Shown in pieces: positions 31,280 through 33,490 of a stretch of 64,000 nucleotides of DNA; the stretch's first letter is position 1; the number at the start of each line of letters is the position of its first letter. Under the pieces are notes generated by a model. The model was not told the DNA's origin. It did not search any database and worked only from the letters and a program-made list of their open reading frames with translations. Location: positions 74,589 through 138,588 of the IMG/VR virus record IMGVR_UViG_3300045988_122050; one strand, 5' to 3'. Made by a program: the position numbers and the translations under genes. The DNA comes from a virus.

Positions 31280-32740
31280 ATGATTGAAGTAATTGGAACA
31301 GTGGTACCAGTGGTTATTGCGGTAGGTGGCGTAGGAGCTATTATCGGTAGCGGTTATGTCAAAGCAAGTCCAGATAAAGCTTATATTATTTCTGGACTTA
31401 GAAAGACACCTAAGACATTAATTGGTAAGGCAGGGTTAAAAATCCCATTCTTTGAAAAAGCAGATCATCTTAATCTTGAGTTAATTCCAATTGATGTTAA
31501 GACATCAAGCTCTGTGCCTACAGCAGATTATATCAATATCAATGTAGATGCAGCGGTCAATGTAAAGGTTAGCAGTAATCCAGAAAGATTAAAACTTGCA
31601 GCAGAAAACTTCTTAAATAAGCCAGTAGGCGATATTGGACAGGTCGCAAGAGAAGTCCTTGAAGGTAATATGCGAGAGATCGTTGGAAAGATGAGCCTCG
31701 AAGAAATGGTTTCTGATCGTCAGAAATTTGCACAGCTTGTTACAGAAAATGCGAAGCCAGACCTTGCTGCAATGGGATTAGATATCATCAGTTTTAATGT
31801 GCAGAATTTTATGGATGATAATGATGTTATTGAAAATCTTGGTGTAGATAATGTTGTTAAAATTCAGAAGAAGGCTGCAATTTCCAGAGCTGAAAGCGAA
31901 AGAGATATTGAAAAAGCAAAAGCAATGGCTGAAAAAGAAGCGAATGATGCAAGGGTTGAGTCAGAAACAGCGATCGCAGAAAAGAATAACAATCTGGAAA
32001 TTAAAAAATCTGAACTTGAGAAGATTTCAAAAGCAAAGAAGGCTGAGGCAGATGCAGCATACAAGATTCAGGAAGAAAAATCACGTAAAGAAATTGAAGT
32101 TGTAACTGCGGATGCTAATATTATGCGTCAGGAAAAGGAAATTGAACTGAAGCGTAAAGACGTTGAGGTAACAGAGCAGACATTAGATGCGCAAATTAAG
32201 AAACAAGCAGAAGCTGAAAAATATGCTTCTCAGCAGAGAGCAGATGCAGACTTATACAAGAGACAGAAAGAATCTGAAGCTAATAAATATGCTAAAGAAA
32301 AAGAAGCTGAATCTACAAAATATGCTATGGAACAGGAAGCTGAAGGTATTCGTGCAAAGGGTGTAGCAGAAGCCGAGGCAATCAAAGCTAAAGGTATTGC
32401 TGAAGCAGAAGCAATCGAAAAGAAAGCAGAAGCTATGAAACAGATGGGTAAAGCTTCTATTGTAGAAATGATGTGCCAGATGTTCCCAGAAGCAGTTAAA
32501 AATGCAGCCGCACCATTAGGAAATGTAGGAAGTATCACTATGTATGGAGAAGGAAACACAACAAAATTAACAAAAGATATTATGAATGTTGTGAATCAGG
32601 TATCAGATGGTGTTAAAGGATCTACAGGTGTTGATCTTGCAAAGATGCTAAAAGATTTTGTTTCTGAAGATAAAGAAGTAGAATCTACAGATAATGAAAA
32701 TCTTGGAACACCAGAGCCAGCAGATTACCGTGAGTTCTAA
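31280..32740 (+). CDS. floT: flotillin (SPFH/band-7 domain, FloT/YuaG-like)
   Basis: N-terminal TM helix; ENFLNKPVGDIGQVAREVLEGNMREIVGKMSLEEMVSDRQKFAQLV and C-terminal ASIVEMMCQMFPEAVKNAAAPLGNVGSITMYG align closely with B. subtilis FloT; EA-repeat coiled coil. Confidence 0.85.
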   Translation: MIEVIGTVVPVVIAVGGVGAIIGSGYVKASPDKAYIISGLRKTPKTLIGKAGLKIPFFEKADHLNLELIPIDVKTSSSVPTADYININVDAAVNVKVSSNPERLKLAAENFLNKPVGDIGQVAREVLEGNMREIVGKMSLEEMVSDRQKFAQLVTENAKPDLAAMGLDIISFNVQNFMDDNDVIENLGVDNVVKIQKKAAISRAESERDIEKAKAMAEKEANDARVESETAIAEKNNNLEIKKSELEKISKAKKAEADAAYKIQEEKSRKEIEVVTADANIMRQEKEIELKRKDVEVTEQTLDAQIKKQAEAEKYASQQRADADLYKRQKESEANKYAKEKEAESTKYAMEQEAEGIRAKGVAEAEAIKAKGIAEAEAIEKKAEAMKQMGKASIVEMMCQMFPEAVKNAAAPLGNVGSITMYGEGNTTKLTKDIMNVVNQVSDGVKGSTGVDLAKMLKDFVSEDKEVESTDNENLGTPEPADYREF

Positions 32741-32754
32741 TAGGAGAAATTATT

Positions 32755-33490
32755 ATGACAATTATTATTATTTGTGTAATTGTAGCGATTATCGCATATT
32801 TACAATTTACTAAAAATGGAAAGCAGATTAAAAATGTGGCATCTGGAACAGTTACAGAAAAAATCAAAGAAAATGCAATGACTCCAGAGGGAGCAAGAGC
32901 CAGATATAATACTGCAATTAAAGATAAGCAGGATTTCTACCAGAAAACAATGGGTACATACACAATGGTAGCTGGTCGATTGGCAACAATGGAAGATAAC
33001 CTCAAAGAAACAAAAGAAGAAATTTCTAAAACCGAGGCAATGATCAACCAGTATATTGATAACAATGATGATAAAAAAGCAATGTATTATGCTCAAAAAT
33101 TAGCCACGCTCAAGGCACAGAAATCAGTGTACGAAAAGAAAATCCCAGAGTTGCAAGCAACAAAAGATAAACAAGAAGAAATTAAAAACCAAGCATATGA
33201 TCAGCTCATTAAGTTAAAAGGTGAAAAAAGATACTGTGGTTCTCCAGATGGAAGCAGATCAGCAGATTGCAGAATTGCAGAAAAATTTAGACCAATACAA
33301 TAGTTTAAATGCTGCTCAGGAAGGTTTGGAAGAGGTTCGAGAAGGAGCAAAGAAACTTAGCGAACAATCCAAAGGCGTTGCTATTGCGTATGAATCTAGT
33401 GCAGAAACATTGGATTATCATATGGAGCAAGAAGAGCGACAGCAAGAAGCTAAAGCCATATTAGATCAGATGAAAAATGCTCGCAAATAA
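32755..33490 (+). pseudogene. membrane-anchored PspA/IM30-like coiled-coil protein interrupted by a +1 frameshift at an A6 run (33224-33229); possibly programmed
   Basis: frame 1 (32755-33303) and frame 2 (33221-33490) join into one continuous coiled coil; PspA-like segments NDDKKAMYYAQKLATLKAQ and LDYHMEQEERQQEAKAILDQMKN. Confidence 0.45.

What the first reader, a model, noticed from the sequence alone, without database searches (positions are those of the whole stretch)
31280..33490. Flotillin (FloT-like) plus membrane-anchored PspA/IM30-like protein encoded by a phage
The 486-aa protein aligns closely with B. subtilis FloT over the SPFH core and the C-terminus. The next gene encodes an N-terminal TM helix followed by a PspA-like coiled coil. 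In B. subtilis, PspA is co-operonic with SPFH proteins (pspA-ydjGHI; liaIH), so this pair looks like a transplanted membrane-stress and raft-scaffolding module. Phage-borne flotillins are rare. The module might protect the membrane during holin or abortive-infection stress, or exclude superinfecting phage.
Basis: partly seen in the sequence, partly recalled or inferred. Interest (0 to 1): 0.6.

Follow-up and report, generated by a model that had tools for sequence, protein, structure and literature searches.

The report
Phage flotillin plus membrane-anchored PspA-like gene
A large human-gut phage carries a host-derived flotillin next to a phage-specific, membrane-anchored distant relative of the membrane-repair protein PspA (broken here by one extra base), and in sister phages that same PspA-like gene sits behind calcium-pump/TerD stress genes instead.

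Summary
The two genes are real, and the window is a large phage. Gene 1 (31280-32740) is an intact 486-aa flotillin: Band_7 plus Flot domains, end-to-end match to human flotillin-1, about 70% identical to Erysipelotrichaceae/Lachnospiraceae flotillins.

Gene 2 is not one ORF here. An extra A in an A-run (33224-33229) splits it into 32755-33303 and 33221-33490. All 78 IMG/VR relatives have an intact 244-aa gene.

The repaired protein scores only 12.7 bits against PspA_IM30 (cut-off 33.9). It belongs to a small, apparently phage-restricted family with an N-terminal TM helix:
- 65 of 107 members hit PF04012.
- The family profile's top PDB hits are Vipp1/PspA (E 2e-7).
- There are no TelA or LemA hits.

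The pair is not a transplanted bacterial operon. Donor-like bacteria have no PspA next to flotillin, and other phage flotillins stand alone. In sister phages the slot upstream of the PspA-like gene holds a P-type ATPase plus TerF/TerD, or the ATPase plus three TerD genes. The flotillin is therefore a recent replacement partner.

A membrane-stabilising role is inferred, not shown. I rate this a new variant of a known kind, of moderate interest.

The parts
30881..31213 (+). 110-aa PM0253-family gene, the conserved left flank of the slot
   Evidence: It is present immediately upstream of either the flotillin or the P-type ATPase/TerF/TerD cassette in relatives. PF27390 is precomputed for its homologues. 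My own Pfam scan found nothing at E<=0.01.
31280..32740 (+). Flotillin gene, 486 aa, intact
   Evidence: Band_7 E 7.8e-24 and Flot E 3e-6. NCBIfam FloT model 296 bits. Human flotillin-1 E 1.1e-53, residues 29-455 against 5-418. 66-72% identical to Longibaculum, Coprobacillus and Lachnospiraceae flotillins.
31292..31354 (+). Flotillin N-terminal hydrophobic membrane anchor (about aa 5-25)
   Evidence: The best 17-residue Kyte-Doolittle window scores 2.26.
31427..31900 (+). SPFH/Band_7 domain (aa 50-207)
   Evidence: PF01145, 85.1 bits against a cut-off of 23.6.
32342..32560 (+). EA-rich coiled-coil flotillin domain (aa 355-427)
   Evidence: PF15975, 27.8 bits against a cut-off of 27. There are 18 EA/AE dipeptides in aa 301-400.
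32755..33303 (+). 5' part of the PspA-like gene (frame 1). Residues 1-158 are authentic; the last 24 codons are an out-of-frame tail.
   Evidence: ORF list and translations. tblastn with the intact L001 homologue splits across two frames.
32758..32808 (+). N-terminal transmembrane helix of the PspA-like protein (aa 2-18)
   Evidence: The AF2 models give helix 2-18. Kyte-Doolittle score 2.77. A hydrophobic N-terminus is present in 104 of 107 family members. Three K/R and no D/E follow the helix, which suggests an N-out, C-in topology.
33224..33229 (+). A6 homopolymer, the site of the 1-nt insertion that splits the gene
   Evidence: The window has GGTGAAAAAAGAT. L013 and 26 other close loci have A5.
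33230..33490 (+). 3' part of the PspA-like gene (frame 2), encoding the most conserved C-terminal segment (LEEVREGAKK...IAYESS)
   Evidence: Joining the two parts gives a protein that differs at one residue from P0001.
33801..34019 (-). HTH_26 (Cro/C1-type) regulator gene, the conserved right flank and the only clear minus-strand gene nearby
   Evidence: PF13443 E 3.4e-14. It is conserved downstream of the PspA-like gene in both the flotillin-type and the TerF/TerD-type loci.

Best explanation
The locus belongs to a roughly 150-165 kb human-gut phage, probably infecting Bacillota. It contains two tightly spaced, co-oriented genes.

- Gene 1 is a complete flotillin: membrane hairpin, SPFH domain and EA-rich coiled coil. 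It was acquired from a Bacillota host.
- Gene 2 belongs to a small family that appears restricted to phages. Its members are about 245 aa long, with an N-terminal transmembrane helix (N-out, C-in) followed by a cytoplasmic helical hairpin and two C-terminal helices. The family is a remote branch of the PspA/Vipp1 (IM30, ESCRT-III) superfamily. The TM helix stands where PspA has its amphipathic membrane-binding helix alpha0.

The PspA-like gene is the constant element of this genome slot. In sister phages the gene(s) just upstream are a Ca-type P-type ATPase plus vWA/TerF plus TerD, or the ATPase plus three TerD genes. In this clade that cassette has been replaced by a flotillin.

Proposed mechanism (inferred):
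- The tethered PspA-like protein polymerises on the inner leaflet and stabilises or reseals the host membrane during the long infection cycle. That keeps the cell energised until programmed lysis, or resists membrane-damaging host defences.
- The flotillin forms an oligomeric platform that concentrates or organises it, as the SPFH protein YdjI does for PspA in B. subtilis.
- In sister phages, Ca2+-binding TerD/TerF proteins and a Ca2+ pump provide an alternative partner set, tied to ion leakage.

In this particular sequence the PspA-like gene carries a 1-nt insertion. It is therefore either mis-assembled or inactive in this strain.

Shown here: domain identities, family relationships, synteny, the cassette swap and the frameshift. 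Inferred: physical coupling of the two proteins and the membrane-protection role.
For: Flotillin identity:
-.
- Host-like origin: about 70% identical to Longibaculum, Coprobacillus and Lachnospiraceae flotillins.

PspA-superfamily link:
- All 9 close homologues hit PF04012 at E<=1.
- 65 of 107 family members hit PF04012 at E<=0.01, best 6.6e-13.
- P0006 (61% identical) scores 29.8 bits and P0048 scores 33.2 bits; both alignments are collinear over profile positions 25-216.
- The family profile's top PDB hits are Vipp1/PspA, E 2.2e-7, positions 45-204 against 26-186.
- The AF2 model has pLDDT 85.8, with a TM helix, a hairpin (44-102 / 106-184) and two further helices.
- Foldseek's only near-full-length hits are Vipp1 and SynPspA.

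Family properties:
- The TM anchor is conserved in 104 of 107 members.
- The family is small: 256 clusters at 50% identity out of 1.84 billion proteins.
- Only 2 loci were found in 185,579 species genomes. Both are ATPase-TerDx3 cassettes on MAG contigs.

Cassette swap at one slot.
- 32 loci: PM0253-flotillin-PSPL.
- 13 loci: PM0253-ATPase-TerF-TerD-PSPL.
- 32 loci: ATPase-TerDx3-PSPL.
- P0017 is a TerD-PSPL fusion protein.

Operon-like arrangement: a 14-nt spacer with its own Shine-Dalgarno, and no plus-strand promoter-like or terminator-like site between the genes.

Literature:
- YdjI (SPFH) is required to localise PspA to the membrane in B. subtilis (PMC8581546).
- Band-7/flotillin-PspA operons recur in bacteria (PMC11237479).
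- In Jug phages a terD gene lies next to a pspA-like gene, is transcribed as an operon, and the phages also carry a Ca P-type ATPase (PMC12880540).
Against: - The window protein itself is far below the Pfam threshold: 12.7 bits against 33.9.
- hhalign of the family against E. coli PspA gives only 29% probability.
- A narrow enterobacterial PspA HMM does not detect the family.
- The flotillin-PSPL adjacency occurs in a single tight clade (PSPL >=95% identical), so it reflects one evolutionary event.
- About 48 other viral flotillin loci have no PSPL within 4 kb.
- L039 has PSPL without a flotillin.
- Bacillus phage G gp247 has neither a flotillin nor a TerD neighbour.
- The gene is frameshifted in this window.
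- There are no expression, localisation or interaction data.
Confidence: 0.5

Rival explanations
1. The two genes are independent accessory genes. The flotillin landed next to the PspA-like gene by a single cassette replacement, and the two proteins do not work together. Each acts alone, or with host partners.
For: - The adjacency is confined to one clade with >=95% identity.
- Other phage flotillins stand alone.
- L039 keeps PSPL without a flotillin.
- Phage G gp247 has neither partner.
- Donor-like bacteria have no PspA next to their flotillin.
Against: - The replacement is exact, at the slot always occupied by a membrane- or ion-stress partner of PSPL.
- The genes are 14 nt apart with no intervening signals.
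- There is experimental precedent for SPFH-PspA coupling (PMC8581546, PMC11237479).
Confidence: 0.3
2. Gene 2 is not a PspA homologue. It is a phage-specific TM-anchored coiled-coil protein, such as a membrane scaffold or lysis regulator, and its PspA/Vipp1 matches are compositional.
For: - Scores are sub-threshold.
- The Vipp1 hit carries a strong bias term, 22.8 of 33.4 bits.
Against: - PF04012 is the only family hit by a majority of members (65 of 107); the next family is hit by 6.
- The alignments are collinear over nearly the whole PspA profile.
- Vipp1/PspA rank first in three independent searches.
- The TerD-pspA-like pairing was independently noted in other phages (PMC12880540).
Confidence: 0.15
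3. The module is an offensive or competitive device rather than membrane maintenance. It might exclude superinfecting phages at the membrane. It might neutralise membrane-targeting abortive-infection effectors. Or the PspA-like protein might act as a decoy for PspA-dependent immune regulation.
For: - The genes lie in the accessory-gene region, upstream of the replication genes.
- A CBASS cyclase is held inactive by conjugation to PspA in Bacillus (PMC11153139).
- The slot's content turns over rapidly, as is typical of conflict genes.
Against: There is no direct evidence. PADLOC and anti-defence libraries were not searched. Conserved TerD/Ca-ATPase partners point to ion or membrane homeostasis.
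Confidence: 0.15
4. In this genome the PspA-like gene is a decaying pseudogene, and only the flotillin is functional. The alternative is that the frameshift is a sequencing or assembly error.
For: - The A6 insertion is unique among more than 80 relatives.
- A second frame-split gene lies 2 kb downstream, at 34973-35502.
- L020 has a frameshifted flotillin.
Against: - Apart from the single base, the sequence differs from the intact allele at only one residue, so there is no further decay.
- Homopolymer indels are a common assembly error.
- A programmed shift is not supported, because no relative shares it.
Confidence: 0.4

Closest known systems
Bacterial flotillins (B. subtilis FloT/YuaG type) and eukaryotic flotillin-1/2
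   Same: It has an N-terminal membrane anchor, an SPFH/Band_7 domain, an EA-rich coiled-coil Flot domain and a similar length. It aligns end to end with human flotillin-1 and with the FloT HMM. It is about 70% identical to gut Bacillota flotillins.
   Different: It is phage-encoded. It scores below the FloT equivalog cut-off, 296 against 700 bits. No NfeD/YuaF-type partner gene lies beside it. PHROGs has no family for it.
PspA/Vipp1/IM30 (PF04012), the bacterial branch of the ESCRT-III superfamily
   Different: The amphipathic helix alpha0 is replaced by a true TM helix plus a linker helix. The sequence is very divergent: 12.7 bits for this protein, about 13% identity to Vipp1. It forms a distinct ~245-aa family that appears phage-restricted. 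It is frameshifted in this window.
B. subtilis pspA-ydjGHI (PspA recruited by the SPFH protein YdjI; PMC8581546) and the Band-7/flotillin-PspA operons of PMC11237479
   Same: An ESCRT-III-like protein is encoded next to an SPFH protein, which suggests recruitment or organisation at the membrane.
   Different: There are no YdjG/YdjH (TPM, zinc-ribbon) or CesT/Tir partners. The SPFH partner is a classical long flotillin, not the short YdjI. The PspA-like protein carries its own TM anchor, so it should not need recruitment. The pairing arose within a phage lineage and was not imported as a unit.
TerD-pspA-like operon and Ca2+ P-type ATPase of Jug and other gut phages (PMC12880540)
   Same: Sister phages of this window carry ATPase-TerF/TerD-PSPL or ATPase-TerDx3-PSPL at the same locus.
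   Different: This clade has swapped the whole Ter/ATPase cassette for a flotillin. I did not test whether the Jug pspA-like gene belongs to the same family.
Bacillus phage G gp247 (hypothetical protein)
   Same: It is a clear family member: 303 bits against the family HMM, with the same length and TM anchor.
   Different: Its neighbours are ABC-transporter-like genes, not a flotillin or TerD.

Membership tests
Flotillin (SPFH superfamily) | SPFH/Band_7 domain above the Pfam gathering score | tested here: met
   PF01145, 85.1 bits against 23.6, aa 50-207.
Flotillin (SPFH superfamily) | C-terminal flotillin (EA-rich coiled-coil) domain | tested here: met
   PF15975, 27.8 bits against 27, which is marginal. 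There are 18 EA/AE dipeptides in aa 301-400. The alignment to human flotillin-1 runs through residue 455.
Flotillin (SPFH superfamily) | N-terminal hydrophobic membrane anchor | tested here: met
   Kyte-Doolittle score 2.26 over 17 residues near aa 7-23.
Flotillin (SPFH superfamily) | FloT equivalog (NCBIfam NF058507, cut-off 700 bits) | tested here: not met
   296 bits, aligned 47-461 against 54-476 of 477. It is a homologue, not an equivalog.
Flotillin (SPFH superfamily) | Large oligomeric membrane assemblies or microdomain localisation | not testable with these tools
   Needs microscopy or cryo-EM.
PspA/IM30 (PF04012) | Score at or above the Pfam gathering threshold (33.9 bits) | tested here: not met
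   The repaired window protein scores 12.7 bits and P0001 scores 13.4. Relatives score 29.8 and 33.2 bits. 65 of 107 members hit at E<=0.01, best 6.6e-13.
PspA/IM30 (PF04012) | Profile-level similarity to solved PspA/Vipp1 proteins | tested here: met
   The A2 profile gives Vipp1/PspA as top hits, E 2.2e-7, collinear 45-204 against 26-186. hhalign against E. coli PspA alone is weak, at 29% probability.
PspA/IM30 (PF04012) | ESCRT-III-type fold: long alpha1/alpha2-3 hairpin followed by alpha4 and alpha5 | tested here: met
PspA/IM30 (PF04012) | N-terminal amphipathic membrane-binding helix alpha0 | tested here: not met
   It is replaced by a hydrophobic TM helix (aa 2-18), conserved in 104 of 107 members.
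PspA/IM30 (PF04012) | Self-assembly into rings, rods or carpets on membranes | not testable with these tools
   Needs purified protein and EM.
PspA/IM30 (PF04012) | Intact reading frame in this window | tested here: not met
   A 1-nt insertion in the A-run at 33224-33229.
Bacterial PspA-SPFH operons (pspA-ydjGHI type) | Adjacent, co-oriented PspA-like and SPFH genes | tested here: met
   14-nt spacing. The arrangement is conserved in 32 IMG/VR loci of this clade.
Bacterial PspA-SPFH operons (pspA-ydjGHI type) | Accessory membrane partners (YdjG/YdjH TPM or zinc-ribbon proteins, or CesT/Tir) | tested here: not met
   The neighbours are PM0253, a radical SAM protein and HTH_26. No such domains were found.
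Bacterial PspA-SPFH operons (pspA-ydjGHI type) | Pairing conserved across divergent lineages, or inherited from a bacterial donor | tested here: not met
   The pairing occurs in one clade only. Longibaculum and Lachnospiraceae flotillin loci have no PspA neighbour.
   Neither family appears in the lists shown for the window protein or for the 9 and 107 family members scanned (one search lists only the first 25 of 48 families).
Ter (TerD/TerF) stress cassette | TerD-domain genes adjacent to the PspA-like gene | tested here: not met
   Absent from the window. Present in sister phages in the same slot.

The most novel reading that the evidence does not exclude
Large phages may carry a dedicated, membrane-tethered ESCRT-III/PspA-like effector as the fixed core of interchangeable membrane-damage response cassettes. 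One version couples it to Ca2+-binding TerD/TerF proteins and a Ca2+-exporting P-type ATPase. That would be a bacterial-virus analogue of Ca2+-triggered ESCRT-III membrane repair in eukaryotes. Another version, seen here, couples it to a flotillin platform. Phages would then actively run a membrane-repair programme in the infected cell, to hold it together until lysis or to defeat pore-forming abortive-infection effectors.
Probability: 0.15. Interest if true: 0.8.

Novelty: new variant of a known kind. Interest (0 to 1): 0.5.

Why it matters
PspA/Vipp1/ESCRT-III proteins and SPFH/flotillin proteins are the two conserved membrane-maintenance systems of cells, and B. subtilis shows that the two are connected. 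This locus adds three things.

- Phages have their own TM-anchored, highly divergent PspA-like family, which standard annotation leaves as a hypothetical protein.
- That family is wired either to flotillin or to TerD/Ca2+-ATPase cassettes. This gives a natural experiment on which partners an ESCRT-III-like effector needs.
- A cultured member exists, Bacillus phage G gp247, so the hypothesis that phages maintain host membrane integrity during infection can be tested.

The result also links the long-enigmatic TerD proteins to a membrane-remodelling effector.

Tried and rejected
- **Programmed frameshift or transcriptional slippage at the A-run.** Rejected. None of more than 80 relatives has A6, and all encode an uninterrupted 244-aa protein. 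The geometry would need a +1 shift, and I see no stimulatory feature in the sequence.
- **Co-acquisition of the flotillin with the radical SAM gene.** In Longibaculum a radical SAM gene follows the flotillin. The phage radical SAM protein (29898-30860) is unrelated to it: BLASTP E 0.15.
- **Shallow 9-sequence profile against the PDB.** It gave only spurious FABP hits. The 107-sequence profile was needed.
- **Building a deep PspA profile for hhalign.** The third homologue search, with E. coli PspA, returned only proteins >=86% identical, so no useful PspA profile resulted. The narrow HMM made from them is insensitive.
- **Near-identical DNA in the INPHARED phage collection.** Only three short 65-71% matches were found.
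- **A2 as a query for the search for related loci.** It was too divergent.
- **Canonical PspA genes near other viral flotillins.** None found.
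Full report
**1. What is at the coordinates**

The window is low-GC (about 33%), with positive GC skew throughout and almost all long ORFs on the + strand. PHROG hits include a DnaB-like helicase, RecJ-like exonuclease, DNA polymerase (phrog_405), exonuclease V/Dda helicase and an anti-repressor. This is a large phage. Its relatives are human-gut metagenome and IMG/VR contigs of roughly 140-166 kb.

At 31280-32740 (+) there is an intact 486-aa ORF with a good Shine-Dalgarno sequence. 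Fourteen nucleotides downstream, at 32755, a second gene starts with its own AGGAG.

The second gene is not one ORF:
- Frame 1 runs 32755-33303 (182 aa).
- The conserved C-terminal part lies in frame 2 (33221-33490).
- The break is one extra A in the run at 33224-33229.
- The closest relative found (L013, 96.5% DNA identity) has A5, and this is the only coding-region indel in 3.2 kb of alignment.
- Twenty-six further relatives with the same local sequence have A5.
- All 78 IMG/VR loci encode an uninterrupted 244-aa protein.

Removing one A gives a 244-aa protein that differs at one residue from P0001, the representative of a cluster of 404 sequences. It matches phrog_33389 end to end (E 2.5e-21).

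The frameshift is therefore private to this sequence. It is either an assembly error or a strain-specific inactivation. A conserved programmed shift is excluded. A second frame-split gene lies 2 kb downstream (34973-35502), and L020 has a frameshifted flotillin. Such breaks therefore occur sporadically in this set of assemblies.

**2. Gene 1 is a flotillin**

- Pfam Band_7 scores 85.1 bits (cut-off 23.6) over aa 50-207. Flot scores 27.8 bits (cut-off 27) over aa 355-427.
- The NCBIfam FloT model aligns over 47-461 at 296 bits, well below the 700-bit equivalog cut-off.
- It aligns end to end with human flotillin-1 (E 1.1e-53) and flotillin-2.
- It has an N-terminal hydrophobic anchor and an EA-rich coiled coil.
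- Outside the phage clade, the best hits are flotillins of Longibaculum muris, Coprobacillus cateniformis and Lachnospiraceae, at 66-72% identity. This points to capture from a Bacillota host.
- A 95%-identical phage protein is already in nr, named a hypothetical protein of Caudoviricetes sp..

Phage flotillins are rare but not unknown:
- 10 of 50,697 INPHARED records match by tblastn. Two of them are annotated 'flotillin family protein'.
- PHROGs has no family for it.
- 149 pattern-matched relatives were found in IMG/VR.

**3. Gene 2 is a TM-anchored, remote PspA/Vipp1 relative of a family that appears phage-restricted**

On its own the repaired protein fails PF04012: 12.7 bits, E 0.096, against a cut-off of 33.9. 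The alignment is nevertheless collinear, 52-242 against 29-217 of 220.

Family-level evidence is consistent:
- All 9 full-length close homologues hit PF04012 at E<=1.
- An exhaustive profile search found only 256 clusters at 50% identity, nearly all about 245 aa long.
- Of 107 full-length members, 65 hit PF04012 at E<=0.01 (best 6.6e-13). The next most frequent family was hit by only 6.
- P0006 (61% identical) scores 29.8 bits and P0048 scores 33.2 bits.
- The 107-sequence profile searched against PDB sequences puts Vipp1/PspA first (E 2.2e-7 to 4.1e-7; 45-204 against 26-186). Generic coiled coils such as tropomyosin score about a thousand-fold weaker.

Structural evidence:
- AlphaFold2 with the deep alignment gives pLDDT 85.8.
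- The model has a TM helix at 2-18, a linker helix at 20-41, a long hairpin (44-102 / 106-184), then helices 191-214 and 216-243.
- In Foldseek the only near-full-length hits are Vipp1 and Synechocystis PspA.

Caveats:
- Helical hairpins give many generic hits of similar score.
- hhalign against E. coli PspA alone gives 29% probability.
- A narrow enterobacterial HMM sees nothing.

No TelA or LemA hit appears anywhere. The hydrophobic N-terminus is a family hallmark, present in 104 of 107 members. It occupies the place of PspA's amphipathic helix alpha0. Flanking lysines suggest an N-out, C-in topology with a cytoplasmic PspA-like domain.

The family seems restricted to phages:
- Only two loci were found among 185,579 species genomes. 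Both are ATPase-TerDx3-PSPL cassettes on MAG contigs. The search used only two peptide patterns, so its sensitivity is limited.
- Bacillus phage G gp247 is a clear member, at 303 bits.

**4. Context: a cassette swap, not a transplanted operon**

| Loci | Gene order | PSPL identity to window |
|---|---|---|
| 32 | [PM0253]-flotillin-PSPL-HTH_26(-) | >=95% |
| 13 | PM0253-P-type ATPase-vWA/TerF-TerD-PSPL-HTH_26(-) | 50-73% |
| 32 | P-type ATPase-TerD-TerD-TerD-PSPL | about 40% |
| 1 (L039) | PM0253-PSPL, no flotillin | 95% |

- Precomputed Pfam annotations confirm the TerD, vWA-TerF-like and Ca-type cation ATPase assignments.
- P0017 is a TerD-PSPL fusion.
- The flanking genes (PM0253, HTH_26 and the 135-aa gene) stay in place while the insert changes.
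- Ter-linked arrangements span three divergent PSPL subgroups. The flotillin arrangement is one tight clade. The flotillin is therefore most simply a recent replacement of an ancestral ATPase/Ter cassette. This is inference.

The reciprocal census covered 80 viral flotillin loci:
- Only the window's own clade has PSPL next door.
- About 48 loci with 44-65%-identical flotillins have none within 4 kb. They also have no canonical PspA.
- MT835492.1 carries a 39%-identical flotillin followed directly by other genes.

In Longibaculum and in Lachnospiraceae the flotillin has no PspA neighbour.

PSPL alleles are mosaic. P0003 is flotillin-linked. It is 95-97% identical to P0001 over residues 1-115, and 99.2% identical to the Ter-linked P0004 over residues 116-244. 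C-terminal halves therefore exchange freely between the two cassette types.

**5. Mechanism**

Shown:
- A complete flotillin lies 14 nt from a TM-anchored PspA-superfamily gene.
- No plus-strand promoter-like or terminator-like site lies between them.
- The PSPL gene is the constant element, and its upstream partner alternates between a flotillin and Ca-ATPase/TerF/TerD sets.

From the literature:
- The SPFH protein YdjI is required to localise PspA to the membrane in B. subtilis (PMC8581546).
- Band-7/flotillin-PspA gene associations recur in bacteria (PMC11237479, PMC10936438).
- In Jug phages one terD gene sits next to a pspA-like gene and is transcribed as an operon. These and other gut phages carry a highly expressed Ca2+ P-type ATPase (PMC12880540).

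Inferred:
- The tethered PspA-like protein polymerises on the inner leaflet to stabilise or reseal the infected cell's membrane.
- The flotillin acts as an organising platform. In sister phages TerD/TerF plus the Ca2+ pump form an alternative, ion-leak-linked partner set.

I put about 0.8 on PspA-superfamily membership, about 0.45 on functional coupling with the flotillin, and about 0.4 on the membrane-protection role. In this window the gene is broken, so the module is either mis-assembled or inactive in this strain.

**6. Comparison, novelty and verdict**

- The flotillin is a new member of a known family.
- The PspA-like protein is a new variant. It is TM-anchored instead of carrying alpha0, falls below curated thresholds, and appears phage-restricted.
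- The SPFH-PspA pairing is known in bacteria. The TerD-pspA-like pairing has been mentioned for Jug phages.
- The literature I searched describes neither the flotillin version nor the partner swap at a fixed slot.
Its two domain identifications are essentially right.

Overall this is a new variant of a known kind, interest about 0.5.

Noticed in passing
window 33621-33760 (+): A tRNA gene (Rfam RF00005, 44.3 bits, full model 1-71) is interrupted by an AT-rich insert of about 69 nt in the anticodon loop. Default ARAGORN misses it. In intron mode ARAGORN calls 'tRNA-Tyr(ata)' with a 69-nt intron at position 32/33. By my reading, the only splice registers that keep U33 give the unusual anticodon AUA. 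The gene is conserved in L013, with small indels inside the insert.
   Followed up: partly
window 34973-35502 (+): The homologue of a 181-aa gene in L001 is frame-split near 35434, and the site is not a homopolymer. This is a second disrupted gene within 2 kb of the PspA-like frameshift.
   Followed up: partly
window 29898-30860 (+), against L001 4041-8125: The slot upstream of PM0253 alternates between a radical SAM gene (phrog_24834) and a NAD-salvage set: nicotinamidase/isochorismatase, NAPRTase and NAD synthase. Ten relatives have the first and sixteen the second.
   Followed up: partly
L039 5650-6735; L020 4536-5986: L039 has PM0253 followed directly by the PspA-like gene, with no flotillin. 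L020 has a frameshifted flotillin.
   Followed up: partly
L009 6001-7080 (protein P0017): A natural fusion of a TerD domain to the C-terminal two-thirds of the PspA-like protein. It sits behind a P-type ATPase and another TerD gene.
   Followed up: partly
proteins P0001, P0003, P0004 (L013, L001, L046-L054): The PspA-like alleles are mosaic. The flotillin-linked P0003 has a flotillin-type N-terminal half (95-97% to P0001). Its C-terminal half is 99.2% identical to the TerD-linked P0004.
   Followed up: yes
L014 5953-6693 (Bacillus phage G gp247): This cultured 498-kb phage encodes a clear member of the PspA-like family (303 bits against the family HMM). It lies beside ABC-transporter-like genes and upstream of two OmpA/MotB-domain genes.
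   Followed up: partly
proteins P0012 and P0014 (short contigs): The last ~80 residues of the PspA-like protein appear fused to a WXG100-like N-terminus (P0012) and to an HlyD-like N-terminus (P0014). These may be assembly chimeras joined at the ADQQIAELQKNL segment.
   Followed up: no
L166/L167 5684-6091: A 135-aa ORF directly downstream of a 49%-identical viral flotillin gives a weak hit to the PspA-like family HMM (E 2e-4). It may be a shorter coiled-coil partner.
   Followed up: no
L010 11550-12458: An IS605 OrfB/TnpB (Cas12f-like) gene lies in the accessory region of a sister phage.
   Followed up: no
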